Source: a bacterium | Lineage (GTDB): Bacteria; UBP7; UBA6624 | Length of the DNA stretch: 32,000 nucleotides | Assembly (NCBI GenBank): GCA_002716355.1 | Contig: PBAU01000002.1 | Coordinates: 60,001-92,000, forward strand | Reading direction: 5' to 3' | In this document: piece by piece, positions 2,622 to 22,348 of the stretch | How the letters are laid out: each line of letters begins with the position of its first letter | Position numbering within the stretch: position 1 is the stretch's first letter | Position numbers and translations under genes: made by a program | The notes under the pieces: model-generated | Database searches by the model: none | Told to the model about the DNA's origin: nothing | The model's input: the letters and a program-made list of their open reading frames with translations, nothing else

Positions 2622-5036
2622 ATGAGCAACCCCCAAAAAGGCCAACATGAAGAACTAGCAAGAACATTAGGACTTTATGACGTTACCATGATTGGCGTTG
2701 CTGCCATGATTGGTGCTGGCATTTTTGTTTTAACAGGAAAGGCCGCAGGCATTGCGGGTCCAGCTTTTCTATTGGCATTTTTTTTAAATGGCATTGTTGC
2801 AATGCTTACTGCTGGCGCATATGCAGAACTAGGAGCATCCTTTCCAGAAGCGGGAGGTGCTTTTATGTGGGTCGCCCAGGGTTACCGGAAAGTGGTTTCC
2901 TTTATTGCTGGGTGGATAGGATGGTTTAGTCATGTTGTAGCTGTTGCTGTTTATTCATTGGGCTTCGGTGTCTATATCTTAGAACTATTTAATTTTTTTG
3001 GATTGGTGGATCATCCAGAGGAAATGGGGTCCAGCTATCAGCTCTATGTCAAGCTTGGAGCAATAGCAATTTGTGTAATTTTATCTTGGGTCAATTTTGT
3101 TGGAGTGTCCGAAACTGGAAAATTTGGATCAATAATGAGCACAGCAAAAGTTGTCATCTTGCTTTTGTTTGCAGTTTTTGGATTCATGCGTATTTTTCAA
3201 ACTGATGGTTTTGTTCATTATGAACCTTTCTTTTTATCCACAGAAGAACACGCAAGTGCAATATTGGTTTTATTTGCAATGGGTATTACATATATGGCAT
3301 TTGAGGGTTATGAGGTAATTGTCCAAGCAAGCGAGGAAGTAAAAAATCCTGAAAAAAATATACCTAAAGCTATATTTCTGTCTATTTTAGTTGTACTGCC
3401 AGTTTATTTATTGGTCGGTGGAGCTTCGCTTGGAGCATTAAACATTGATGAGATTTCACCTTCTTTAAGTGCAGGTTTTTATGGCCTGGTTGAATCTTCT
3501 CAACAACCTGCAACCAATTACAATTTAATGGCATTTTTGGGCGAAAGGGCAGTCGTTGAATCTGCTAATCAATTTGTTCTGCCTTTCCCTTTTCCTGGCT
3601 CTAACTACACTGTGGGCATGTTTCTTGTTATATTAGCAGGCATAGCTTCAACAACATCAGCACTTAACGGAACACTGTTTTCTTCCAGCAGGGTTGCATT
3701 TGCAATGGGCAGGGAGGGTTTATTGCCTTCGATTCTTGGAAAAATTCATCATGTTAAACGAACGCCATATATGGGTTTATTTTTTACTGCATTAATTGTT
3801 CTTGTGATCGTGGTTGCATTACCGCTTTCAGCAGTGTCTGCAGCGGCAAATGTTATGTTTCTTTTATTGTTTACATTAGTGAACATGACTTTAATCAAGC
3901 TTAGAAAAACCAAACCAAAAGTGGCAAGGCCATTCAGGATGCCATTGGTTCCTCTGTTGCCATTTTTAGCCATAGTTTTACAGATAGTTATAGCTATTGG
4001 TGTATTCTTTATTCCAAATTCACCTTTTGATGCGCATGGTGGCCATTCTGCAGGTGCCATTGCCTGGGGTGTGACGTTAGCTTGGATTATCTTGGGTTTA
4101 TTGTTATATGTCGGCCCATTTAGAAAGCTTCAACCAATGTCTAGATCCAGGATTGCAAGTCAAGATACCATTCATACGCCGCAAGGAAATAGCATATTGC
4201 TTGCATTGCCAAATTCTAAAAATCAAAAACCTTTAACACATCTAGCTGCAAGCATTGCAAAAGCACAGGACAGTTTAATCCATATTGTTTCGATTGCAAC
4301 CATACCAGAAACTACACCTTTAACTTTCGCTCCAAAAAAAGATATTCAAAAAAGACATGACTTAATCTCTTCCGCAAAGCAGGAGTTAGAGAAAAGTAAG
4401 GTGAAAATTAACAGCAGTGTTGTGGTTGGAAGGCACCCTGCTGCAGTGATATGCAATGTCGCAGATTTAAGAGGTTCTGATTTGGTTTTAATGGGCTGGA
4501 GAGGCGGTAAAAAGAAAAAAGGGTTGTTTCTTGGAGACACCCTTGACAGGGTTTTGGCTGATTCCTCTAAAACTCTTGCAATATTAAAACAAGGTAAAGA
4601 AACTGAATATAAGAATGTTACTGTGGCTGTAGGTTATGGACCAAATACACAAAAATCAATTGAAATTGGGGCAAGAATCGTTTCGTCTAATCAAGGCTGC
4701 CTTACACTGTTAGCCGTTGCAAAAAATGCCGATGAAAAAGATTTTGCTAAAAAAAGGTTGCAGGCATCAGCAATAGAAATTCAGTCAGTGTATAAGGACT
4801 TAAAGGTGGTTCAGAGCATAATTAAATCATCCTCGATTAAGAAATCAATTATTAAATCATCCAAAGAAAGCGATCTTTTGATCTTAGGGGCAAGTGTAAA
4901 TGGTGTTTTGGATAAAGCCAGACTTGGAAATATCCAAGAAAGCATTGCAAGAGAGTCCAAAGGCAGTGTTTTAACTATTAGAGCGCCTGAGGGAAGGGTG
5001 AAAAGATGGTTACATAGGTTATTAAACGATGAATAA
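2622..5036 (+). CDS. APC-family amino acid/polyamine permease fused to C-terminal tandem universal stress protein (Usp) domains
   Basis: The N-terminal roughly 500 aa is polytopic and carries the APC signature-like GVAAMIGAGIFVLTG. The C-terminal roughly 290 aa contains two Usp-like repeats ending in DLVLMGWRG.. and DLLILGAS... Confidence 0.85.
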   Translation: MSNPQKGQHEELARTLGLYDVTMIGVAAMIGAGIFVLTGKAAGIAGPAFLLAFFLNGIVAMLTAGAYAELGASFPEAGGAFMWVAQGYRKVVSFIAGWIGWFSHVVAVAVYSLGFGVYILELFNFFGLVDHPEEMGSSYQLYVKLGAIAICVILSWVNFVGVSETGKFGSIMSTAKVVILLLFAVFGFMRIFQTDGFVHYEPFFLSTEEHASAILVLFAMGITYMAFEGYEVIVQASEEVKNPEKNIPKAIFLSILVVLPVYLLVGGASLGALNIDEISPSLSAGFYGLVESSQQPATNYNLMAFLGERAVVESANQFVLPFPFPGSNYTVGMFLVILAGIASTTSALNGTLFSSSRVAFAMGREGLLPSILGKIHHVKRTPYMGLFFTALIVLVIVVALPLSAVSAAANVMFLLLFTLVNMTLIKLRKTKPKVARPFRMPLVPLLPFLAIVLQIVIAIGVFFIPNSPFDAHGGHSAGAIAWGVTLAWIILGLLLYVGPFRKLQPMSRSRIASQDTIHTPQGNSILLALPNSKNQKPLTHLAASIAKAQDSLIHIVSIATIPETTPLTFAPKKDIQKRHDLISSAKQELEKSKVKINSSVVVGRHPAAVICNVADLRGSDLVLMGWRGGKKKKGLFLGDTLDRVLADSSKTLAILKQGKETEYKNVTVAVGYGPNTQKSIEIGARIVSSNQGCLTLLAVAKNADEKDFAKKRLQASAIEIQSVYKDLKVVQSIIKSSSIKKSIIKSSKESDLLILGASVNGVLDKARLGNIQESIARESKGSVLTIRAPEGRVKRWLHRLLNDE

Positions 5037-14439: not shown

Positions 14440-15606
14440 TTAAACTAAAAACCAATCTTTTTGTGGCTCTGTTGTGACAATTGGAAGAGGATTGATTACT
14501 AGGTTGATCTCACTTCGTATGCCCCATTCTGGATAATAAACACCAGGTTCAATCGTTCCTGCCCATCCTGGAAGCAGCGATCTTGTGTCTTTTGCCTCAT
14601 AGCTGTCTAGTTGAGCAGCATCACCATGGGCGCTTGTAAGTCCCAGATTATGGCCTGTCCTATGAATGAACCCCTCTCCAAATCCATGATTTTCAATTAC
14701 ATTTCTAACAGCCTGGTCAACCTCATAACCGGCAATCGATCTTTTCTCCAAAAAAGCTCTCTTTATTACCTGAACCCCCGCATCTCTGGCTTCTAAAACA
14801 GCATAAAAACCCTTGTCGATAACCTTGTCAACTTTTCCTCGTTTTGCCATCCATGTTATATCGGCATATGCAGGTTTGTCAGATTTTTTTGTTGCCCATA
14901 AATCTATAAGAAGCACAAAATTTTCTCCCAATCTTGCACTTCCCTCTTTTGGTGTTGCGTAATGGGGATCGCCAGCATTTCCATTAACTGCAACTACAGG
15001 TGGATGGTCAGTTGTCATGCCCATTTCTTCAAAACTTTCTAGTATCCAATTTTGAACCATTGATTCATCCAGTTCAAAAGGTTTTGCCTTAGACACTCGA
15101 TCAAAAACACCTTGGACTATTGATGTTAAATTTATTGCTGATTCACAATGGGATTCAATTGTTTTTTCGGACCATAGTAAAAGATGTTCCTGCGAGATGT
15201 TTTCACTACTTTTTAAACTGCAATCCATTGATCTTAGTAGGTCAATCAACCCCCCATCAAGATAAGAGAGATAGGGAATCTTGCCATCTTCACACCATTC
15301 CACATAAATGGTTTTTCCTGCAATCATTGATGTCAATGTTCTTTTCCAATCTTCAAAATTTTGATATTTTCTAATTTGCACATCAGTGAATGCCAGACTT
15401 TTTGATTCAATTCCATTGACAATCATTTCTGCTTTTCCTTTTTTTGGAATCCAGAGCGCCCATCGCCTGCTTAAAAACACATTATCTGGTAAAAATTTTC
15501 TAGCAATTGGATTATGTGAATGGAAATCTGCAACAAACCATCCATCAACTGCATGGCTGGAAAGGTTGTTTTGAATTTCTTTAATCAATAAATCGAGTTG
15601 TTTCAT
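14440..15606 (-). CDS. M24 family metallopeptidase (Xaa-Pro aminopeptidase/creatinase-like)
   Basis: C-terminal pita-bread domain motifs are present: LIDLWA..., HRTGHNLG, GTIEPGVYY, GIRSEINLV. Confidence 0.8.
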   Translation of the reverse strand: MKQLDLLIKEIQNNLSSHAVDGWFVADFHSHNPIARKFLPDNVFLSRRWALWIPKKGKAEMIVNGIESKSLAFTDVQIRKYQNFEDWKRTLTSMIAGKTIYVEWCEDGKIPYLSYLDGGLIDLLRSMDCSLKSSENISQEHLLLWSEKTIESHCESAINLTSIVQGVFDRVSKAKPFELDESMVQNWILESFEEMGMTTDHPPVVAVNGNAGDPHYATPKEGSARLGENFVLLIDLWATKKSDKPAYADITWMAKRGKVDKVIDKGFYAVLEARDAGVQVIKRAFLEKRSIAGYEVDQAVRNVIENHGFGEGFIHRTGHNLGLTSAHGDAAQLDSYEAKDTRSLLPGWAGTIEPGVYYPEWGIRSEINLVINPLPIVTTEPQKDWFLV

Positions 15607-15634
15607 TGTGGAAAATTTTATACTATGCTAAGTT

Positions 15635-16435
15635 ATGTTTTTTCTAATGATGTTGTTAATGAAACCATGCCTCGGGCATGATCAGCATTGTGACAAAAGA
15701 TACGACGAGCTTTCTTACCTTGTTACGCATAATGCGATGTCGACATCAGAAGATAGATGGCTTTTCCCCAACCAGGATCGAGGTCTCATTGCTCAGCTGA
15801 ACGATGGCGTTAGAGGCTTGTCGTGGGACATCTACGAGCATAATCAGGAGGTTTATCTTTGCCATGGTTATTGCTGGCTTGGAAAAAGGAAATTAATGCA
15901 TGACCTTGTTGAACTCAAAGGTTGGCTAGATGATAACCCCAGAGAGATAGTCTCGATTTTTTTTGAAAGCTATGTCGGGAAGAAGCCGGTTGTCGAGCTT
16001 TTTGAGCAGTCTGGAATGATTAGCTATGTTCACCATCAAGCCCTTGAGCAAGATTGGCCATCCATAATTGATATGATCGACAGCGGAAAAAGGGTTGTTG
16101 TTTTCACAAGTCGGGAAGGCGGTATTGACGACTGGTACCATGATGCCTGGAGGTATGTTTGGGATACAGATTTTTCATACAAAAGCATCGATGACTTTTC
16201 ATGCTCAAGGCTCAGGGGCCCAAAAGACCTTTCAGGTCTTTACAGCATAAATCATTTTTTGACAAACCCACTTGCCTCAAAAACACTTGCCTCAAAAGCA
16301 AACCCGTCTGTTTACAAAAGAGCTGAGAGCTGTTGGGTAAAGACTGGGCAAAGGCCCAATTTTATTTTTGTTGATTTTTATTCGGTCGGAAACACCTTGG
16401 AGGCGGTAAGAAAATTAAACTTGTTACATTTTTAA
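15635..16435 (+). CDS. PI-PLC X-domain-like phosphodiesterase (PLC-like phosphodiesterase superfamily)
   Basis: YLVTHNAMS, NQDRGLIAQLNDGVRGLSWDIY and LCHG resemble bacterial PLCXD-type proteins. A short hydrophobic N-terminus suggests export. Confidence 0.65.
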   Translation: MFFLMMLLMKPCLGHDQHCDKRYDELSYLVTHNAMSTSEDRWLFPNQDRGLIAQLNDGVRGLSWDIYEHNQEVYLCHGYCWLGKRKLMHDLVELKGWLDDNPREIVSIFFESYVGKKPVVELFEQSGMISYVHHQALEQDWPSIIDMIDSGKRVVVFTSREGGIDDWYHDAWRYVWDTDFSYKSIDDFSCSRLRGPKDLSGLYSINHFLTNPLASKTLASKANPSVYKRAESCWVKTGQRPNFIFVDFYSVGNTLEAVRKLNLLHF

Positions 16436-16444
16436 AACAAGTTT
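16417..16444 (+). promoter_or_regulatory. perfect 9-bp inverted repeat AAACTTGTT-N10-AACAAGTTT at the junction of the PLC-like gene and the PhoU-wHTH gene
   Basis: The left arm at 16417-16425 pairs perfectly with the right arm at 16436-16444, with a 10-nt loop containing the PLC-like stop codon (16433-16435). It could be an operator or an RNA hairpin. No downstream U-tract follows, so it is not a classical terminator. Confidence 0.4.
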
Positions 16445-17411
16445 GAATGCACATAACAAATATACAATTGAGAAGATGATGACAGAGGATCGTACAAACA
16501 AGGTTCATTTAAACGTTATCAGGTTAGGCAAGCTGGTTGTTTTTGCGTTAAAAAAAGCTCTTAAGGGTAGCACCTTTAACATAGATGCTTTTCTTGCAAA
16601 ATGCAGAGCAAGAGAGACTGAAATCAACCTGTTAGAGATGGAAATTGAACAGGATCTCCAGACTTTAATGAGACCAGAGCTGGAAGATAAAGATTGTCGT
16701 CACTTTACAGCGTTGTTGAAAATCAATAATGACCTTGAGAGGATTGGCGATTATGCCATGGCGATAGCTAAATATCTTGTTGATGTTGACATGTCAGAAA
16801 CGGTGAAAATTGAATCCAAATTTAAAAAATTATCAAAAGCATCTATAGAGATGCTTGAAAGATCCGTTAAGGCAATAGAGCTTGAAGATATCAACCTAGC
16901 CAAGCAGGTTATTCGTGATGACGATTATGTTGATAAATTGAACAAGGCAATAATCAAGATTCTTTTAAGCAGTAAAAATCCAGATATGGCTTCGGTTGTT
17001 TCGTTGGTTAATTTGTGTAGAAGATTGGAGAGGACAGCAGATCATGCAACCAACATAGCAGAAGATTTGGTTTTTTGGATAGAGGGTGATGTTTTGAGGC
17101 ATCCCACAAAAAAAAGATCCTTTATGTTTAATGAGATTGAAATATATCCAAACAGCAGAGAGATTAAGATTTCAGAAAAGGTCCATCTTTCTAAAAGTGA
17201 ATGGGAGATATTCATACACCTTATAGAAAGATCTCCAGACGGTGTTTCTAGAGAGGATCTTATGAAAAATGCTTTAGGCTACGACTCTTCTGTTGAAACT
17301 CGAACTATCGATCAACACGTGGTTAGATTGCGAAAAAAACTAGGCCACAAAAAAACACTTTTGAAATCTATAGCTGGATTCGGTTACAAAGTGGTTAATT
17401 CAAAGAATTAA
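16443..17411 (+). CDS. PhoU-domain protein fused to a C-terminal OmpR/PhoB-type winged-helix DNA-binding domain, with no receiver domain
   Basis: Residues about 12-220 align to the downstream canonical PhoU and include both ExxxD metal motifs (NDLERIGDYA, LERTADHATNIAEDLVFW). Residues about 226-318 match the PhoB C-terminal domain (LSKSEWEIFIHLIE, VSREDLM, ETRTIDQHVVRLRKKL, GFGYKV). The track start is a TTG at 16443, and the first ATG is at 16476 (MMTEDR..). Confidence 0.85.
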   Translation: MNAHNKYTIEKMMTEDRTNKVHLNVIRLGKLVVFALKKALKGSTFNIDAFLAKCRARETEINLLEMEIEQDLQTLMRPELEDKDCRHFTALLKINNDLERIGDYAMAIAKYLVDVDMSETVKIESKFKKLSKASIEMLERSVKAIELEDINLAKQVIRDDDYVDKLNKAIIKILLSSKNPDMASVVSLVNLCRRLERTADHATNIAEDLVFWIEGDVLRHPTKKRSFMFNEIEIYPNSREIKISEKVHLSKSEWEIFIHLIERSPDGVSREDLMKNALGYDSSVETRTIDQHVVRLRKKLGHKKTLLKSIAGFGYKVVNSKN

Positions 17412-17499
17412 AACAAATTTGTTACAAGTTTTTAAAAAATCACAAAGAATACTATTTAAGATTTCAACTTAAATCCAAAAAGGAGGATTTTATATAAAA
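17412..17499 (+). promoter_or_regulatory. pstS upstream region with a palindrome, shared sequence words and a strong Shine-Dalgarno
   Basis: Largest intergenic gap in the window. Contains a perfect 12-bp palindrome AACAAATTTGTT (17412-17423). TTGTTACA (17419-17426) and ACAAGTTT (17424-17431) are also present at 16421-16428 and 16437-16444. SD AAGGAGGA at 17480-17487 lies 12 nt before the ATG. Confidence 0.45.
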
Positions 17500-18384
17500 A
17501 TGAAATTTAAATTTTCAAGCTTTTTTATATTGTTAGTTTTAGTAGTTACCAGTTGTGCAAGGCCGCAGGATTCTGAAGGAAATGCCGCAGGAAGTAGTTC
17601 CTCGGGAAGCGAGCAAAGCATACAGGTGACAGGCTCTGACACCATGGTTAACTTAGGTCAAGCATGGGCTGAAGAATATACAAAAACGAACCCCAACGCA
17701 TATATTGCTGTTGGTGGCGGAGGCTCTGGTGTTGGGATCGCTGCCTTGATGAATGGAACTGCTGATCTCGCAAATTCATCCAGAGCAATTAAGGACAAAG
17801 AGATCTCAAAGGCAAACGAACTTGGCTTCGGTATCAAGGAGTATATTGTTGGTTGGGATGGGCTTGCTGTTGTCGTTCACCCAGATAATCCAGTTAACCA
17901 ATTGTCAATTTTGCAAATCGCAGAAATTTTTACTGCCAAAATTACAAACTGGAAAGAGGTTGGTGGTGATGATTTAGAGATTGTTTTGTTGTCACGAGAG
18001 GTAAATAGTGGAACACATGTTTACTTCAAAGAAAATGTCGTTGGATCTTTAGGTAAGGGTACTGAATTCAGCGAAGAGGCGTTATTGATGCCAAGTAGCC
18101 AAGCACTTGCTGATGAGGTAACAAATAATATTGGCGCAATTGGCTATTATGGCATGGGTTATTTGTCACCATCACAAAAGCCAATTGATGTATCTGTTGA
18201 TGGGGTTGTTTTTGTTCCACCAACTATAGAAAATGTTCTTAATAAAACATATCCAATTGCGAGACCCCTACACATGTTTTCAAGAGATAACATTTCTGCA
18301 GCAGCAAAAGCTTATATTGAGTGGATAATGGGAGAGGGGGGCCAGGCTGTTGTTGCAGCACAGGATTTTGTCCCCTTGAGCTGA
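17500..18384 (+). CDS. pstS: phosphate ABC transporter substrate-binding lipoprotein
   Basis: Lipobox (VVTSC). PBP-like-2 phosphate-binding motifs are present: GSDTMVNL, GGGGSGVGIAALMNGTADLANSSR, SREVNSGT. Confidence 0.9.
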   Translation: MKFKFSSFFILLVLVVTSCARPQDSEGNAAGSSSSGSEQSIQVTGSDTMVNLGQAWAEEYTKTNPNAYIAVGGGGSGVGIAALMNGTADLANSSRAIKDKEISKANELGFGIKEYIVGWDGLAVVVHPDNPVNQLSILQIAEIFTAKITNWKEVGGDDLEIVLLSREVNSGTHVYFKENVVGSLGKGTEFSEEALLMPSSQALADEVTNNIGAIGYYGMGYLSPSQKPIDVSVDGVVFVPPTIENVLNKTYPIARPLHMFSRDNISAAAKAYIEWIMGEGGQAVVAAQDFVPLS

Positions 18385-18415
18385 CTTTAGCCTGATTTGA
18401 TTAAGATTTGAACTT

Positions 18416-19327
18416 GTGAAAAATATAAAATTAAAAAAGCATAAAACAGAGACTTTCAAACAGCCTCTGTCTGAAAAAATAACAGAGGCATGCTTGCGTT
18501 TTGCAGCATGGCTATGCATCTTTTTTATTGCCTGCATTCTTTATTTTTTAGTAAAAGAAAGTGGCGGGGTTTTTTTTAGTGACATTTTTACTATTACAGG
18601 TAAATTTTGGAGACCAATCAGTGAACCTCCAGATTTTGGTGTTTGGGTATTGCTTGCAGGCAGTTTGGCAGTAACGTTAACAGCATCTCTAATCGCAGTG
18701 CCCCTAGGGATTTGTGCAGCTATTTTTATCGGCGAACTGCTGCCACAGAAATTTAGAGAATTTTTGAAAGTTATAGTTGAATTTCTAGCAGCAATACCAA
18801 GTGTTGTTATTGGGTTCTTGGGCATGATTATTCTTGCACCATACATCAAGGAAGCTTTTGACCTAAAAACAGGCTTAACGGCTTTTTCGGCAGCATTGAT
18901 GCTTGCATGGATGGCAATGCCGACAATAGTCAGTTTAACTGAGGATGCTCTCAGAAGTGTACCTGATACTTTAAGAGATGGGGCTCTTGCTCTTGGTGCT
19001 ACCAAATGGCAAATGATCACAAGGGTGCTTTTGCCAACAGCAAAACCAGGCATACTTGCTGCAGCAATGCTTGGTGTTGGAAGGGTGATAGGTGAAACAA
19101 TGGCGGTTTTAATGATTAGTGGTAATTCTGCCAGGATACCAAGTAGCATCATGGAGCCAGTCAGAACTCTCACTGCAACAATTGCTGCAGAAATGGGAGA
19201 AACAGTCAAGGGCGATGAGCATTATCAAGCCCTTTTTGGCTTGGGTGTTGTTTTATTTATTATCACATTGCTAATTAATACTGCAGCAGATAGGTTTATT
19301 AATAAAAAATACACAGAAGAATCATGA
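18416..19327 (+). CDS. pstC: phosphate ABC transporter permease
   Basis: Polytopic protein with an EAA-like loop (SLTEDALRSVPDTLRDGALALGATKWQ). GTG start. Gene order is pstS-C-A-B. Confidence 0.9.
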   Translation: MKNIKLKKHKTETFKQPLSEKITEACLRFAAWLCIFFIACILYFLVKESGGVFFSDIFTITGKFWRPISEPPDFGVWVLLAGSLAVTLTASLIAVPLGICAAIFIGELLPQKFREFLKVIVEFLAAIPSVVIGFLGMIILAPYIKEAFDLKTGLTAFSAALMLAWMAMPTIVSLTEDALRSVPDTLRDGALALGATKWQMITRVLLPTAKPGILAAAMLGVGRVIGETMAVLMISGNSARIPSSIMEPVRTLTATIAAEMGETVKGDEHYQALFGLGVVLFIITLLINTAADRFINKKYTEES

Positions 19328-20184
19328 ACTTTAAAAAACAAAATCCAATCAACCAGCAAAAAAGGGCCACTTTTGGCTTGGGGCTTATAACAGCCATTGT
19401 GGTTATTCCGGTTTTATTGATACTAGGTGTTGTTTTTGTTAAGGGTATTTCAGTTATAGATTGGAACTTCCTGACCACTGAACCCACCAATGGTTTAAGA
19501 GAGGGCGGGGTTTTCCCGGCCATAGTTGGAACATTGATCCTGGTTGTTGGGGCCGTGGTTTGGAGTGTCCCTTTTGGTGTGGCTACTGCAATTTATCTTG
19601 TTGAATATTCTCCAAGAAGCCGAGCAGCTAACTTGGTTAGGTTAGCAATCTTAAATTTAGCAGGAGTCCCCAGTGTTGTTTACGGGTTGTTTGGCTTGGG
19701 GGTGTTTGTCATAGCTTTAAAATTTGGCGCAAGCATTTTAGCGGGAACTTTAACCCTTGCTCTGATGGGTTTGCCAGTAATAGTCACATCAACTGCAGAA
19801 GCGTTAAAAGCTGTTCCTGATAGATTCAGAGAAGCAAGCTTGGCATTGGGTGCTAGCAAATGGCAAACAACTAGGCATGTTGTTCTTCCAAACTCCATAC
19901 AGGGAATTTTGACCGGAATAATTTTAGAAATTAGTCGTGCTGGCGGAGAGACTGCACCAATTTTGTTCACTGTAGCAGCTTTTTATTTACCAAGATTGCC
20001 ACAAAGTATCTTTGATCAGGTCATGGCGCTTCCAATGCATCTTTTTGCAATCTCAACACAGGTGCCTAACATAGGCTTGGATGTGAGATATGCAGTTGCC
20101 TTAACGTTGTTGTTTTTAGTTTTAGGCATCAATGCAGTTGCAATTTCCATAAGAGCAAAAATTAGGAAAAACAGAATATGGTAA
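19324..20184 (+). CDS. pstA: phosphate ABC transporter permease
   Basis: Polytopic protein with an EAA-like loop (STAEALKAVPDRFREASLALGASKWQ). ATGA overlap with pstC. Confidence 0.9.
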   Translation: MNFKKQNPINQQKRATFGLGLITAIVVIPVLLILGVVFVKGISVIDWNFLTTEPTNGLREGGVFPAIVGTLILVVGAVVWSVPFGVATAIYLVEYSPRSRAANLVRLAILNLAGVPSVVYGLFGLGVFVIALKFGASILAGTLTLALMGLPVIVTSTAEALKAVPDRFREASLALGASKWQTTRHVVLPNSIQGILTGIILEISRAGGETAPILFTVAAFYLPRLPQSIFDQVMALPMHLFAISTQVPNIGLDVRYAVALTLLFLVLGINAVAISIRAKIRKNRIW

Positions 20185-20927
20185 AAGAAATCATTATTAA
20201 ATCTTTGTCGGTTTCATATGGAAACAAACAGGCAATAAGAAATTTGTCTTTATCGGTTGAAAAAAATGAAATATTAGGAATCATTGGTCCTACTACTTCA
20301 GGAAAAACAACCTTACTTACAGTTTTAAACAGAATGATCGACACAATACCGTCAGTTGCGATTTCCGGCAATGTTTCCATGGGTGATATTGATGTTTTGA
20401 CAACACCAAACATCCATAGTCTCAGGAGGTCTGTTGGGATGATTTTTGCCCTTCCGGTCGCTTTGCCCATGACTATTAGGGAAAATGTTGAATATGGCCC
20501 AAAGATGGCTGGAGAGGCAAAAGGAGAGTTGGAGACAAGGGTTAAAGAAAGTCTTGTGCAGGCTGGATTATGGGATGAGGTGCACGACAGGTTGGACACC
20601 CCGGCATTAAAGCTTTCAGGCGGCCAGCAACAAAGGCTTTGCATCGCAAGGGCTTTAGCATTAAAGCCAAAGGTTTTATTGCTTGATGAGCCTTGTTCGG
20701 GGCTTGATCCAATCTCAACATCCAGAATAGAGGATACACTGAGTCAATTAAAAAATGACATGACTATCATCTTGGTCACAAACAACCCCCATCAAGCTGC
20801 TCGTGTTGCTCATCGAACAGCTTTTATGCTTAAGGGCGAGCTTATCGAGCTTGCTGACACAGACACACTGTTCACAAATCCTGCAGACAATAGAACAAAA
20901 GAATACATTGAGGGTAAATTTGGATAA
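20178..20927 (+). CDS. pstB: phosphate ABC transporter ATP-binding subunit, divergent paralogue lacking the Q-loop Gln and H-loop His
   Basis: Aligns to E. coli PstB along its full length. Walker A GPTTSGKT, signature LSGGQQQRL and Walker B LLLDEP are present. The Q-loop reads VGMIFALP (Ala codon at 20448-20450 where Gln is expected). The H-loop reads LVTNN (Asn codon at 20781-20783 where His is expected). Confidence 0.9.
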   Translation: MVKEIIIKSLSVSYGNKQAIRNLSLSVEKNEILGIIGPTTSGKTTLLTVLNRMIDTIPSVAISGNVSMGDIDVLTTPNIHSLRRSVGMIFALPVALPMTIRENVEYGPKMAGEAKGELETRVKESLVQAGLWDEVHDRLDTPALKLSGGQQQRLCIARALALKPKVLLLDEPCSGLDPISTSRIEDTLSQLKNDMTIILVTNNPHQAARVAHRTAFMLKGELIELADTDTLFTNPADNRTKEYIEGKFG

Positions 20928-21691
20928 TGGCAAAAACTCTAATTAAATCTGAAAAATTCAATTTGTGGTATGGTGACTTTCAAGCTTTAATTGATATAGA
21001 TCTCGACATACCAGAAAATCAAGTTACAGCTGTTGTGGGTCCTTCAGGATGCGGAAAAAGCACTTTTGTTCGTTGTATCAACAGGCTAAACGATCAAATA
21101 AACACAGTTAGCACCAAGGGTTCTATTTTTATTGATGGGACAGACATTTACCAATATACGGCTGATGAGGTTGTTGGGCTTAGGCGATCTGTCGGGATGG
21201 TTTTTCAGAGACCCAACCCCTTTCCGCTTTCTGTTTTTGAAAACGTTGCTTTTGGCTTAAAGACAAACCCCATGGTTCCTGATCATCAAACCATAAAAAA
21301 GGAAGTCAATAAAGCGCTGCAAGCGGTAGGTTTGCTTGAGGACCTAGACGGTAACCTTGCGAGACCAGGAACCAGTCTTTCCCTGGAACAGCAGCAAAGA
21401 TTATGTATTGCAAGATGCCTGCCAACAAGGCCCAAAATATTGCTTATGGACGAACCTTGTTCAGCATTGGATCCAAGCGATACCGATAAGGTAGAGGAGC
21501 TCATAAGGGAATTAAGGAAAGACTATACCGTTGTGATAGTGACCCACAACCTACAACAAGCTGGCAGAATTTCTGATCAATCTGTATTATTCCATTTGGG
21601 CAAAATTATTGAAGCAGCACCAACAGCAGATTTCTTCCAGAACCCGAAAGAAAAAAGAACAAGAGACTTTATTACAGGTCGTTATGGTTAG
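20927..21691 (+). CDS. pstB: phosphate ABC transporter ATP-binding subunit, catalytic motifs canonical but signature motif degenerate (LSLEQ)
   Basis: Walker A GPSGCGKS, Q-loop VGMVFQRPNPFP, Walker B LLMDEP and H-loop IVTHN are all canonical. The signature is LSLEQQQRL (21377-21391) instead of LSGGQ. The C-terminus DFITGRYG matches the PstB consensus. Confidence 0.9.
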   Translation: MAKTLIKSEKFNLWYGDFQALIDIDLDIPENQVTAVVGPSGCGKSTFVRCINRLNDQINTVSTKGSIFIDGTDIYQYTADEVVGLRRSVGMVFQRPNPFPLSVFENVAFGLKTNPMVPDHQTIKKEVNKALQAVGLLEDLDGNLARPGTSLSLEQQQRLCIARCLPTRPKILLMDEPCSALDPSDTDKVEELIRELRKDYTVVIVTHNLQQAGRISDQSVLFHLGKIIEAAPTADFFQNPKEKRTRDFITGRYG

Positions 21692-21700
21692 GAGTTAAAT

Positions 21701-22348
21701 ATGACTAAAAGATTAACAAAACTTATTGATAAAATCAAAGTAAAAACCTTGGCAATGGCTCAAGATGTTTGCAAATCAATGGATGATGCAATGGAGGCAA
21801 TTTTAAATTCTAGCGATGATAAATATCAAGCAATGAAACAACGAGAAGATAATATTGATTCGCTAGAAGTTGAGATCGAAGAATCCATACTTGGCACCAT
21901 TGCTGTCCATCAACCTGTTGCAGATGATTTAAGAATTCTTGCAGCAATGTTGAAGATTACAAATGACTTAGAAAGAATTGGTGATTATGCGATCAAAATT
22001 GCTCAAAGGGGCAAGGATATTGACGCCAACTTGATCAAGAGCATCAAAGCTCCTTTGTCTAAATTGGGAACATCTTCAATCCAGATGATTAAAGATGCAG
22101 TACAGGCTTTAGACGCAGGAGATGCAGATTTAGCCCAGAAGGTTAGAGATGCTGATGACCAGGTGGATGAGCTTAACAAATCCCTCATAAAGGAATTATC
22201 CAAAATCGATGATGATGACTTTGAGTCCTTGGTCGCACTGGTTTCAATATCCAGAAGATTCGAAAGAGCTGCTGATCATGCAACAAACATAGCAGAAGAT
22301 GTTTTGTTCTGGCTTGAAGGCAGGATATTCAGACACGGTGAAACCTAA
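21701..22348 (+). CDS. phoU: phosphate signalling complex protein PhoU
   Basis: 215 aa with two PhoU repeats (NDLERIGDYAIKIA and FERAADHATNIAEDVLFW). SD AGGAG lies upstream. It occupies the canonical position after pstB. Confidence 0.92.
   Translation: MTKRLTKLIDKIKVKTLAMAQDVCKSMDDAMEAILNSSDDKYQAMKQREDNIDSLEVEIEESILGTIAVHQPVADDLRILAAMLKITNDLERIGDYAIKIAQRGKDIDANLIKSIKAPLSKLGTSSIQMIKDAVQALDAGDADLAQKVRDADDQVDELNKSLIKELSKIDDDDFESLVALVSISRRFERAADHATNIAEDVLFWLEGRIFRHGET

What the first reader, a model, noticed from the sequence alone, without database searches (positions are those of the whole stretch)
16443..17411. PhoU domain fused directly to a PhoB/OmpR-type DNA-binding domain: a candidate one-component phosphate regulator
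Seen in sequence:
- One uninterrupted ORF joins a complete two-repeat PhoU domain to a winged-helix output domain through a short PTKKRS linker.
- Both ExxxD motifs of the PhoU domain are intact (ERIGD, ERTAD), and the domain is closely paralogous to the canonical phoU at 21701-22348.
- The winged-helix domain aligns with the PhoB C-terminal domain (RTIDQHVVRLRKKL, GFGYKV).
- The position normally held by the phospho-receiver domain in PhoB is held by PhoU.
- The gene sits immediately 5' of pstSCAB-phoU.

Established knowledge: in E. coli, PhoU bridges PstB and the PhoR kinase to report transporter status, and PhoB then binds DNA after phosphorylation.

Inference: this fusion could couple Pst transporter or Pi status directly to promoter binding without a phosphorelay. 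I do not know of any characterised example of this architecture.
Basis: partly seen in the sequence, partly recalled or inferred. Interest (0 to 1): 0.85.

Follow-up and report, generated by a model that had tools for sequence, protein, structure and literature searches.

The report
PhoU fused to PhoB-type DNA-binding domain
An uncultured marine bacterium encodes, directly upstream of its phosphate-uptake operon, a real and conserved protein that joins the phosphate-signalling protein PhoU to a PhoB-like DNA-binding domain with no phospho-receiver; this very rare design arose at least twice and probably lets phosphate status control genes without a kinase relay.

Summary
ORF 16443-17411 (the real start is probably ATG 16476, giving 311 aa) encodes two PhoU repeats plus an OmpR/PhoB-type winged helix and has no receiver domain. 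It sits directly 5' of pstS-pstC-pstA-pstB1-pstB2-phoU.

It is not an assembly artefact. The exact sequence lies in a cluster of 42 members at >=90% identity from independent assemblies. Orthologues with the same synteny occur in four further species-level MAGs. dN/dS is about 0.06 in both domains.

The architecture is extremely rare: 3 clusters among the top hits from 1.84 billion representative proteins. It arose at least twice. A GC-rich lineage (L083/L085) fused a near-canonical PhoU, sitting in the phoU slot after pstB, to a different winged helix that is also most PhoB-like.

The fusion-pstS intergenic DNA carries a strongly conserved palindrome and 11-bp-phased (G/T)TTACA-like hexamers. 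In one orthologue an exact 11-bp unit is duplicated. The independent lineage has three phased CT(A/C)ACA(A/T)T repeats at pstS.

No paper describing this architecture was found. The function, a one-component phosphate regulator of pst, is inferred and not shown. Its sign (activator or repressor) and whether phoBR is also present are unknown.

Verdict: a new variant of a known kind, of moderately high interest.

The parts
16443..17411 (+). PhoU-winged-helix fusion gene. This is the mechanical ORF from TTG; the probable real start is ATG 16476, giving 311 aa.
16494..17090 (+). PhoU domain (aa 18-216): two PhoU repeats forming a six-helix bundle, with both E/DxxxD motifs intact.
   Evidence: Pfam and NCBIfam; AF2; Foldseek matches to 1XWM, 1T72 and 4Q25; invariant motif residues
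17100..17120 (+). Short basic linker (HPTKKRS) between the domains. It is encoded partly by an A8 run at 17108-17115.
   Evidence: pLDDT <50 at aa 220-224; junction conserved in orthologues
17121..17393 (+). OmpR/PhoB-type winged-helix DNA-binding domain (aa 227-317). The recognition helix reads RTIDQHVVRLRKKL.
   Evidence: Pfam Trans_reg_C; best response-regulator families are the PhoB models; Foldseek matches to 1GXP/1GXQ; 34% identity to E. coli PhoB aa 151-224
17395..17411 (.). Perfect palindrome TTAATTC-N3-GAATTAA across the stop codon. It is a candidate operator for a symmetric dimer.
   Evidence: 15/17 columns invariant in 5 genomes although the reading frame ends differently; unique in the window
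17410..17437 (.). Three hexamers at exact 11-bp phase (AAAACA, GTTACA, TTAAAA). This is a candidate Pho-box-like binding array at the pstS promoter.
   Evidence: 25/29 invariant columns over 17412-17440; exact 11-bp tandem duplication TTTTTACAACT in L001; single match in the window
17457..17462 (+). Conserved TAnGAT (TAAGAT), the likely -10 hexamer of the pstS promoter. There is no recognisable -35.
   Evidence: 5/6 invariant; no consensus sigma-70 promoter in 15400-17700
16423..16439 (.). GTTACA-N5-AAAACA, the same two hexamers just upstream of the fusion gene and overlapping the end of the upstream ORF. It is a possible autoregulatory site, only weakly conserved in the other orthologues.
17500..21691 (+). 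pstS, pstC, pstA, pstB1 and pstB2, encoding the high-affinity phosphate ABC transporter. This is the presumed target operon and possible signalling partner.
21701..22348 (+). Canonical single-domain phoU (215 aa), the paralogue of the fusion's N-terminal domain.
   Evidence: TIGR02135 at 162 bits, above the cut-off; 38-40% identity to the fusion's PhoU domain
15635..16435 (+). Gene for a PI-PLC-X-like protein with a hydrophobic N-terminus that I read as a signal peptide (by eye; no signal-peptide predictor was run). It lies immediately upstream in all five genomes and may be a co-transcribed phosphate-scavenging enzyme.
   Evidence: weak Pfam PI-PLC-X hit; PF26178/PF26146 on the orthologue; synteny

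Best explanation
The gene encodes a one-component phosphate regulator. A PhoU sensor module takes the place of the phospho-receiver of a PhoB-type transcription factor.

Shown: the architecture, its conservation and its position next to pst. Also shown: a constrained, helically phased repeat element between the fusion gene and pstS.

Inferred:
1. The PhoU domain dimerises, as PhoU proteins do, and so presents two winged helices to the phased (G/T)TTACA-like hexamers and/or the adjacent palindrome, which span about -75 to -28 of a pstS promoter that lacks a -35.
2. The PhoU domain reports phosphate status. It could do this by binding cytoplasmic Pi or metal directly, as proposed for mycobacterial PhoU, or by docking on PstB of the neighbouring transporter, or both.
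3. When Pi is plentiful the protein is held inactive, either Pi-bound or sequestered at PstB. When Pi is scarce it is released, binds the array and activates pstSCAB-phoU, and probably its own transcription unit. It would thus do the job of PhoR plus PhoB without phosphotransfer.
4. The canonical PhoU encoded at the end of the operon could then compete for PstB or form heterodimers, giving negative feedback.

The stated confidence (0.42) is for the full activator version. The weaker claim that this protein is a phosphate- or Pst-responsive transcription regulator of the pst locus I put at about 0.7.
For: Both domains are detected with high significance and no receiver domain is found. The fold is confident and matches solved PhoU structures and the PhoB effector domain on pho-box DNA.

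The gene is real. It belongs to a cluster of 42 members at >=90% identity from Tara, JGI, ENA, Logan and NCBI assemblies. Orthologues at 72-98% identity with identical synteny occur in four other species-level MAGs. dN/dS is 0.056 (PhoU) and 0.061 (winged helix) against the closest orthologue. At saturation pN/pS is 0.13-0.28, with the winged helix the more conserved domain.

The design is convergent. The L083/L085 fusion has a PhoU domain 57-63% identical to ordinary PhoU proteins but only 31% identical to the window's. Its winged helix is 24% identical to the window's. It sits in the phoU slot right after pstSCAB. Its winged helix again scores best on the PhoB models (73.6 and 66.4 bits, next family 55.9). 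The window's does too (56.7 and 46.9 bits, next 42.7).

Cis element: the palindrome has 15/17 invariant columns and the phased box 25/29, against 8/16 in the neighbouring spacer, while synonymous sites are saturated (pS about 0.8). L001 has an exact 11-bp duplication that adds one in-phase unit. There is no consensus sigma-70 promoter in the region (0 found, 5.5 expected), as expected for activator-dependent promoters. The independent lineage has three CT(A/C)ACA(A/T)T units at exact 11-bp spacing upstream of pstS, and these are 3 of only 4 matches in 11 kb.

Literature: PhoU homologues homodimerise (PMC11705898). Purified M. smegmatis PhoU1 acts on its kinase only with Pi and independently of Pst (PMC12301784). 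In enterobacteria PhoU bridges PstB and PhoR (PMC9239213).
Against: No experiment supports DNA binding, Pi sensing or PstB docking for this protein.

The hexamer and palindrome patterns were derived from this sequence, and their counts in the window are not significant on their own. In AT-rich DNA such motifs arise easily, and a conventional PhoB, if the genome has one, could be what binds them.

I could not determine whether phoB/phoR exist elsewhere in these genomes.

PhoB residues reported (recalled from memory of the PhoB literature) to matter for sigma-70 contact and for minor-groove contact are not conserved. By eye on the alignment and its continuation, W184 is Leu and R219 is Ala. Activation in the manner of PhoB is therefore uncertain.

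PhoU is genetically a negative regulator in most bacteria, which fits a repressor at least as naturally.

The relative orientation of the two domains in the model is not confident (pTM 0.66, linker pLDDT <50), so it gives no structural hint of autoinhibition.
Confidence: 0.42

Rival explanations
1. Same protein and same sites, but the opposite sign. It is a Pi-dependent repressor, or an anti-PhoB. When Pi is plentiful the Pi-loaded or PstB-informed PhoU dimer places its receiver-less PhoB-like domains on the Pho-box-like array and blocks the promoter, or blocks a conventional PhoB. It leaves the DNA when Pi falls. This would turn PhoU's classical negative role into direct repression.
For: PhoU is a negative regulator of pho genes in E. 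coli, Salmonella and mycobacteria. A receiver-less PhoB DNA-binding domain would compete for PhoB sites. The PhoB transactivation-loop Trp is replaced in the fusion (by eye). In L083 the last repeat unit (4151-4159) lies only 6 bp from the TATGGT hexamer I read by eye as a -10, inside what would then be the spacer, a position compatible with occlusion. The conserved palindrome at 17395-17411 is typical of operators for symmetric dimers.
Against: The pstS promoter has no recognisable -35, so it needs some activator. That would require a separate PhoB that I did not find in 52 kb. The conserved array lies mostly upstream of and over the -35 position, not over the -10 or +1. In L083 the fusion occupies the only phoU slot on the contig, so a purely negative factor would leave activation unexplained there.
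Confidence: 0.28
2. The protein is a phosphate-responsive regulator, but pst is not its main target. It controls other genes, for example the upstream PI-PLC-like phosphodiesterase, polyphosphate metabolism or a wider regulon. The conserved DNA at pstS would then belong to another factor.
For: The fusion gene lies 7-40 bp downstream of the PI-PLC-like gene in all five genomes and may be co-transcribed with it. GTTACA-N5-AAAACA also occurs at 16423-16439. PhoU proteins have roles beyond pho repression, such as polyphosphate control and persistence (abstracts listed).
Against: Linkage to pst is the one feature shared by the two independent fusion lineages. The best-conserved non-coding element in the neighbourhood lies exactly between the fusion gene and pstS.
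Confidence: 0.12
3. The winged helix no longer binds DNA. The protein works as an ordinary PhoU accessory factor at the transporter, and the extra domain serves as a protein-interaction or dimerisation appendage.
For: Some PhoB DNA-contact positions differ (V197 is Gln, R200 is Val, R219 is Ala; by eye). The PhoU motifs are fully intact.
Against: The winged helix is the more conserved half of the protein (80-85% identity against about 70% for the PhoU domain; pN/pS 0.13-0.15 against 0.25-0.28). It keeps the family's recognition-helix signature RTxDxHxxRLRKKL and the GxGY wing. It folds confidently as a complete effector domain.
Confidence: 0.06
4. The ORF is an artefact: a chimeric assembly, a frameshift that fuses two genes, or a decaying pseudogene.
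For: An A8 homopolymer lies exactly at the domain junction (17108-17115), a place where sequencing or slippage errors could merge frames.
Against: The same junction is found in 42 cluster members from independent assemblies. It is found in four other species with A7 instead of A8 and the same frame. It is found in GC-rich lineages with no A-run at all. Purifying selection acts on both sides of the junction. There is no separate start codon or ribosome-binding site for the winged-helix part.
Confidence: 0.01

Closest known systems
PhoB, the OmpR-family response regulator of the Pho regulon (E. coli PhoB; PDB 1GXP, 1GXQ, 1QQI)
   Same: The C-terminal domain has the same fold (TM to target about 0.8). 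The PhoB models are its best-scoring response-regulator families. It is 34% identical to E. coli PhoB residues 151-224, with a shared RTxDxHxxRLRK recognition helix and GxGY wing. The gene is next to pst, and the promoter has 11-bp-phased direct repeats and no -35, like pho-box promoters. The comparison with pho-box promoter layout rests on my own knowledge.
   Different: There is no receiver domain and no phospho-acceptor Asp, so the protein cannot be a response regulator or be controlled by PhoR phosphotransfer. All PhoB models score far below their cut-offs. The sigma-70-contact Trp and the minor-groove Arg of PhoB are not conserved (by eye).
PhoU, the phosphate signalling complex protein (TIGR02135; PDB 1XWM, 1T72, 4Q25, 2I0M)
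   Same: The N-terminal 215 residues form a complete two-repeat PhoU six-helix bundle with both E/DxxxD motifs. The gene is linked to pstSCAB.
   Different: It carries a covalently attached DNA-binding domain. It scores just below the PhoU equivalog cut-off (122.3 against 130.25), and a canonical phoU is kept in the same operon. Known PhoU proteins act through PhoR/SenX3 and/or PstB, not on DNA.
Archaeal SpoVT/AbrB-PhoU transcription regulators (for example T. kodakarensis TK2245; the 'PhoU family' transcription factors counted in P. furiosus)
   Same: A PhoU domain is combined with a DNA-binding domain in one polypeptide and is annotated as a transcription regulator. TK2245 was recovered among chromosome-associated proteins, and 7 'PhoU family' transcription factors were counted in P. 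furiosus.
   Different: The DNA-binding domain is different (an AbrB swapped-hairpin, N-terminal, against an OmpR/PhoB winged helix, C-terminal), as are the domain order and the domain of life. No AbrB/MazE hit occurs in the window protein. As far as I could find, those archaeal proteins are not mechanistically characterised either.
OmpR-family winged-helix regulators without a working receiver (CadC/ToxR-type one-component regulators; atypical regulators such as GlnR, ChxR and HP1043)
   Same: An OmpR/PhoB-type winged helix is controlled by something other than Asp phosphorylation. The CadC and ToxR DNA-binding domains and GlnR appear among the structural matches (ranks 19, 41, 48).
   Different: Those proteins use membrane or periplasmic sensor domains or degenerate receiver domains. 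None uses PhoU as the input module (my own knowledge plus the negative literature searches).
Transporter-coupled transcription factors (MalT-MalK, Mlc-PtsG) as a functional analogy
   Same: In the proposed PstB-docking version, a transcription factor would be sequestered by the ATPase or transport component of the system it regulates. This analogy rests on my own knowledge.
   Different: There is no homology, and the docking is hypothetical here.

Membership tests
PhoU family (Pfam PF01895; NCBIfam TIGR02135 phoU_full) | Two tandem PhoU repeats detected by the family model | tested here: met
   PF01895 at E 4e-30, two stretches
PhoU family (Pfam PF01895; NCBIfam TIGR02135 phoU_full) | Six-helix (two three-helix) bundle fold | tested here: met
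   AF2 helices at 3-41, 47-75, 82-114, 121-147, 150-176 and 182-214; TM to target 0.84-0.88 against 1XWM, 1T72, 4Q25 and 2I0M
PhoU family (Pfam PF01895; NCBIfam TIGR02135 phoU_full) | Conserved E/DxxxD metal-binding motifs in both repeats | tested here: met
   D97, E99, R100, D103 and E196, R197, D200, N204, E207 are invariant in 52 sequences, including all the fusions
PhoU family (Pfam PF01895; NCBIfam TIGR02135 phoU_full) | Score above the curated equivalog cut-off, meaning the same function as canonical PhoU | tested here: not met
   122.3 bits against a cut-off of 130.25 for the window protein. The neighbouring phoU scores 162.4, the L083 fusion 200.2 and P0004 131.5
PhoU family (Pfam PF01895; NCBIfam TIGR02135 phoU_full) | Physical interaction with PstB and/or the Pho sensor kinase | not testable with these tools
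   No multimer prediction or experiment was available. The E. coli/Salmonella PhoR-contact residues A147/R148 are conserved neither in the fusion nor in the canonical paralogue by my by-eye alignment, so they are uninformative
OmpR/PhoB-family response regulators | C-terminal Trans_reg_C winged-helix effector domain | tested here: met
   PF00486 at E 3e-16, aa 245-316; fold match to the PhoB, ArlR, VicR and CovR DNA-binding domains
OmpR/PhoB-family response regulators | N-terminal receiver domain (PF00072) with a phospho-acceptor Asp | tested here: not met
   No Response_reg hit at E<=1. A phmmer search with the E. coli PhoB receiver finds nothing in the fusion ORFs but finds a receiver in 69 of the other 75 winged-helix loci. 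The N-terminal part is all-helical
PhoB equivalog (TIGR02154, NF053854, NF007546) | Full-length score above the curated cut-off | tested here: not met
   56.7, 46.9 and 26.9 bits against cut-offs of 270, 296 and 471. Only the DNA-binding third of the models matches, but these are the top response-regulator families
One-component signal transduction systems (an input and an output domain in one protein, with no phosphotransfer domains) | A sensor-type domain and a DNA-binding output domain in one polypeptide, with no HisKA, HATPase or receiver domain | tested here: met
   Domain content from Pfam and NCBIfam. That the PhoU domain acts as a sensor here is inferred from the literature
One-component signal transduction systems (an input and an output domain in one protein, with no phosphotransfer domains) | Signal-dependent DNA binding | not testable with these tools
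   Needs EMSA, DAP-seq or reporter assays
Archaeal SpoVT/AbrB-PhoU regulators | N-terminal SpoVT/AbrB (MazE_antitoxin) DNA-binding domain | tested here: not met
   No such Pfam hit in the window protein, P0004 or P0121

The most novel reading that the evidence does not exclude
The PhoU domain is itself the phosphate sensor and directly gates a PhoB-type DNA-binding domain. These bacteria would then run their Pho response through a single protein, with no PhoR kinase and no PhoB receiver. This short-circuit of the classic seven-gene Pho signalling pathway evolved independently at least twice. It would also provide a minimal natural system in which PhoU's long-debated input (Pi, metal or PstB state) can be read out directly as DNA binding.
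Probability: 0.3. Interest if true: 0.82.

Novelty: new variant of a known kind. Interest (0 to 1): 0.64.

Why it matters
How bacteria sense phosphate is still debated after decades. PhoU is required, but what it senses and how it passes the signal on are unclear. One view is that it bridges PstB and PhoR. A more recent view is that it senses Pi directly and independently of Pst.

A natural protein in which PhoU is wired straight to a PhoB-type DNA-binding domain gives a one-polypeptide read-out of PhoU's state. The test would be DNA binding with and without Pi, metals, PstB or the canonical PhoU.

The same solution arose twice, both times at a pst operon and both times with a PhoB-like winged helix. 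That argues the pairing is functionally meaningful. It is also 'Rosetta-stone' evidence that PhoU acts in direct functional contact with the PhoB output step.

The design could serve as a compact phosphate-responsive switch for synthetic biology.

The limits are that the family is tiny and known only from uncultured organisms, so its ecological weight is small, and that all functional statements are predictions.

Tried and rejected
1. **Combined alignment for structure prediction (A7).** I added winged-helix fragments to the fusion and PhoU sequences, but MAFFT placed the fragments on the PhoU region. I discarded A7 and used A8 instead.
2. **Metagenome scan for the P0004 lineage's context.** The only hit, L084, is an ordinary receiver-winged-helix regulator with its kinase downstream. 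P0004's own contig is 1.3 kb, so its context stays unknown.
3. **Motif enrichment in the window.** The hexamer-pair pattern gives 6 matches against 4.5 expected. The three-unit and palindrome patterns are single hits, and 6-12% of shuffles reach the observed count. These counts are not evidence by themselves, so I relied on cross-genome conservation. One pattern search across the loci used the wrong spacer length and is uninformative.
4. **RNA explanations for the conserved intergenic DNA.** There are no Rfam families and no tRNAs. The consensus fold is -4.7 kcal/mol with no covariation.
5. **Programmed slippage at the junction A8 run.** A9 would give a 218-aa PhoU-only product. The run is A7 in three orthologues and absent from the GC-rich lineages, so I treat it as Lys-codon usage.
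6. **PhoR-contact residues from Salmonella and E. coli (A147/R148, R184).** They are not conserved in the fusion or in the canonical paralogue, so they give no information on partner choice (plus a by-eye alignment).
7. **Search for phoB/phoR.** None is in the window or in about 10 kb on either side.
8. **Taxonomy.** NCBI labels the source only '[bacterium]'. Cluster mates at >=90% identity for two neighbouring genes are labelled Gemmatimonadota. I did not verify the phylum.
9. **Literature.** Five searches combined PhoU with winged helix, fusion, one-component, Trans_reg_C, domain architecture or AbrB/SpoVT. None found a description of PhoU plus an OmpR-type winged helix. The library holds only open-access papers and preprints.
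Full report

Yes. The window has one uninterrupted ORF at 16443..17411 on the + strand (322 aa from a TTG).

- Pfam finds PhoU (PF01895, E 4e-30, two stretches) and Trans_reg_C (PF00486, E 3e-16, aa 245-316). No receiver domain appears even at E<=1.
- NCBIfam matches the full-length PhoU model over aa 18-216 (122.3 bits, just under the 130.25 cut-off). For aa 222-316 the two PhoB models are the best response-regulator families (56.7 and 46.9 bits, next family 42.7).
- An AlphaFold2 model built on 52 sequences is confident (mean pLDDT 86). It shows six long helices (3-214), a disordered linker (220-224) and a beta-sheet/three-helix/hairpin domain (227-317).
- Foldseek matches the first part to solved PhoU proteins (TM to target 0.84-0.88). 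It matches the second part to OmpR-family DNA-binding domains, including PhoB bound to pho-box DNA (TM to target about 0.8).
- No PDB chain covers both parts.
- Immediately downstream lie pstS, pstC, pstA, two pstB genes and a canonical 215-aa phoU that scores 162 bits on TIGR02135.

Three corrections apply. The true start is probably ATG 16476, giving 311 aa, as in NCBI's MBG97609.1 and as in the L005/L006 orthologues. The paralogy to the neighbouring phoU is 38-40% identity, so it is the nearest relative but not a close one. The operon has two pstB genes.

**2. Is it an artefact?**

No.

- The exact protein is in the public collection, in a cluster of 42 members at >=90% identity assembled independently from Tara, JGI, ENA, Logan and NCBI data.
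- A scan of 185,579 species-representative genomes with the winged-helix part returned 79 loci. Exactly four of them (L004-L007, all uncultured marine MAGs, 79-98% identical in that part) have PhoU N-terminal of the winged helix. In 69 of the other 75 the same ORF carries a receiver domain. The remaining six include two cut at a contig end and four (L027, L037, L063, L065) with neither domain.
- All five genomes share the gene order PI-PLC-like gene, fusion, pstSCAB1B2-phoU, deacetylase, CBM9 protein, SSF transporter.
- Against the closest orthologue dN/dS is 0.056 for the PhoU part and 0.061 for the winged helix. At larger distances synonymous sites are saturated (pS about 0.8) and pN/pS is 0.25-0.28 (PhoU) and 0.13-0.15 (winged helix). 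Both halves are therefore under purifying selection, the DNA-binding half more strongly.
- The A8 run at the junction (17108-17115) is A7 in three orthologues and absent in the GC-rich relatives, and the frame is always kept.

**3. How rare is it, and how did it arise?**

A profile of the fusion proteins was searched exhaustively against 1.84 billion representatives at 50% identity. Among the best 150 hits only three proteins span both domains (P0001 for this clade, P0004 and P0121). Everything else is single-domain PhoU, apart from one odd protein with six tandem winged helices. Weaker fusions below about 118 bits cannot be excluded.

P0121 belongs to a GC-rich lineage with only one other cluster (P0373, 87% identical). 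Several facts mark it as a separate origin:
- On both of its contigs the full 322-aa gene sits directly after pstS-pstC-pstA-pstB, which is the normal phoU slot, and no separate phoU is seen on the 11-kb contig L083; the 2.8-kb L085 shows only pstA-pstB and the fusion.
- Its PhoU domain is 57-63% identical to ordinary PhoU proteins and passes the equivalog cut-off (200 bits), but it is only 31% identical to the window's PhoU domain.
- Its winged helix is 24% identical to the window's.

It is therefore an independent and apparently recent fusion. Its winged helix again scores best on the PhoB models (73.6 and 66.4 bits, next 55.9).

P0004 is GC-rich and 35% identical to the window protein. The two have reciprocally best-matching winged helices, and both PhoU domains are nearest to the same marine PhoU clade. 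This fits one old fusion shared with the window clade, but it is not proven. P0004's genomic context is unknown.

**4. The DNA around it**

- No consensus sigma-70 promoter occurs anywhere in 15400-17700 (0 found, 5.5 expected), and there is no terminator between the fusion gene and pstS.
- The 88-bp fusion-pstS spacer is far better conserved than neutral sites. A perfect palindrome TTAATTC-N3-GAATTAA (17395-17411) has 15/17 invariant columns, even though the ORF ends at different codons in different genomes.
- The next 29 bp (17412-17440) have 25/29 invariant columns. The following spacer has 8/16, and a TAnGAT hexamer (17457-17462) has 5/6.
- The conserved block contains hexamers at exact 11-bp phase (AAAACA 17410, GTTACA 17421, TTAAAA 17432). 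In L001 an exact 11-bp unit (TTTTTACAACT) is tandemly duplicated, giving five in-phase units.
- A one-helical-turn duplication that keeps phase is what one expects of an array bound head-to-tail by OmpR/PhoB-type domains. From my own knowledge, the hexamers resemble TT(A/T/C)ACA-type Pho boxes of Gram-positive bacteria.
- Taking TAnGAT as the -10, the conserved block spans about -75 to -28 and covers the missing -35.
- The pair GTTACA-N5-AAAACA recurs at 16423-16439, just upstream of the fusion gene, but it is only loosely conserved in the other genomes and overlaps coding sequence.
- In the independent L083 lineage, the pstS upstream region has CTAACAATT, CTCACATTC and CTAACAATT at 4129, 4140 and 4151, again exactly 11 bp apart. 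These are 3 of only 4 matches to CTMACAWT in 11 kb, and 1 of 200 shuffles reaches 4.
- Caveats: motif counts within the window are not significant on their own, and a conventional PhoB, if present, could be the binder.
- No RNA family, tRNA or covarying structure explains the conservation.

**5. Mechanism**

Established background:
- In E. coli and Salmonella, PhoU links PstB to the PAS and catalytic domains of PhoR and keeps the Pho regulon off at high Pi (PMC9239213, PMC4423584).
- S. aureus PhoU homologues are homodimers (PMC11705898).
- In M. smegmatis, purified PhoU1 pushes SenX3 toward phosphatase activity only when Pi is present and does so without Pst. This suggests PhoU senses Pi itself (PMC12301784).

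My best reading is a one-component Pho regulator. A PhoU dimer presents two PhoB-type winged helices to the phased array and/or the palindrome at PpstS. The PhoU domain reads Pi status, either directly or through PstB. At low Pi the protein activates pstSCAB-phoU and probably its own transcription. The co-encoded canonical PhoU gives feedback by competition or heterodimerisation.

The main rival is the same device with the opposite sign, a Pi-dependent repressor or PhoB competitor. This fits PhoU's classical negative role and the loss of PhoB's sigma-70-contact Trp (by eye). I give the activator version 0.42 and the repressor version 0.28. Smaller weights go to 'other targets' and 'non-DNA-binding appendage'. 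An artefact gets about 0.01.

**6. Comparison with what is known**

The protein is not a response regulator, because the defining receiver domain was tested for and is absent. By NCBI's cut-off it is not an equivalog of PhoU, although it is clearly a PhoU-family domain. It fits the definition of a one-component system by architecture.

The nearest precedents are:
- PhoB: same output domain, different input.
- Canonical PhoU: same input domain, no output.
- Archaeal SpoVT/AbrB-PhoU regulators such as TK2245: PhoU plus a different DNA-binding domain, N-terminal and uncharacterised.
- Receiver-less OmpR-type regulators such as CadC and ToxR.

Public databases call the window protein 'hypothetical protein' (NCBI) or 'phosphate transport system protein' (JGI). 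No paper describing PhoU fused to an OmpR-type winged helix turned up in five full-text searches, which cover only open-access papers and preprints.

**7. Verdict**

This is a real and conserved domain fusion that is very rare and has evolved convergently. I class it as a new variant of known kinds (PhoU-family signalling proteins and OmpR-type one-component regulators), not a categorically new system.

Its value is that it could make PhoU's disputed sensing function directly testable. The double origin next to pst, each time with a PhoB-like output domain, argues that the pairing is functional.

The weaknesses are that all function is inferred, the hosts are uncultured (NCBI label 'bacterium'; neighbouring genes cluster with a MAG labelled Gemmatimonadota), and the presence or absence of phoBR is unknown.

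Interest 0.64.

Noticed in passing
window 17395-17411: A perfect palindrome TTAATTC-N3-GAATTAA spans the fusion gene's stop codon. Its arms are invariant in all five genomes although the ORF ends at different codons (AAG AAT TAA against TAG in the loop), so the constraint is on the DNA. It is unique in the window.
   Followed up: partly
P0126 (692 aa): A protein made of six tandem Trans_reg_C winged-helix domains after a hydrophobic N-terminus that looks like a signal peptide. It has no receiver and no PhoU domain. The architecture is odd and unrelated to the finding.
   Followed up: no
L083 4129-4159: Three direct repeats (CTAACAATT, CTCACATTC, CTAACAATT) lie at exact 11-bp spacing upstream of pstS in the independent GC-rich fusion lineage. 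They are followed 6 bp later by TATGGT.
   Followed up: partly
window 15635-16435 (and orthologues in L001, L004-L006): A gene for a PI-PLC-X/Rv2075c-like protein with a hydrophobic, signal-peptide-like N-terminus (read by eye) always lies immediately upstream of the fusion gene, 7-40 bp away. It is plausibly a phosphate-scavenging phosphodiesterase in the same transcription unit.
   Followed up: partly
window 15607-15625 (alignment A6): GGAAAATTTTATAC is invariant in five genomes directly next to the start codon of the divergent M24 peptidase gene. It may be a promoter for a leaderless or short-leader mRNA.
   Followed up: no
window 17108-17115: An A8 homopolymer encodes the Lys-Lys-Arg of the interdomain linker. 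An A9 slip would give a 218-aa PhoU-only product. The run is A7 in three orthologues and absent in the GC-rich lineages, so it is probably just codon usage.
   Followed up: yes
window 15400-17700: The consensus scan finds no sigma-70-type promoter at all (0 against 5.5 +/- 2.3 in shuffles), although three gene starts lie here.
   Followed up: no
L027, L037, L063, L065: Four winged-helix ORFs related to the query had neither a PhoU nor a receiver domain by phmmer. They may be other non-canonical OmpR-type architectures or truncated gene calls.
   Followed up: no
L086 12223-13077 (about 0.9 kb beyond the window's 3' end): An Exo_endo_phos (PF03372) family gene lies a few genes downstream of the window. 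It may be another phosphate-related hydrolase in the neighbourhood.
   Followed up: no
L083 9070-11010 (- strand): A hybrid histidine kinase, read by eye from the translation as PAS, kinase core and C-terminal receiver (its Pfam domains were not looked up), converges on the L083 fusion gene. It is not PhoR-like in architecture, and its relation to the fusion is unknown.
   Followed up: no
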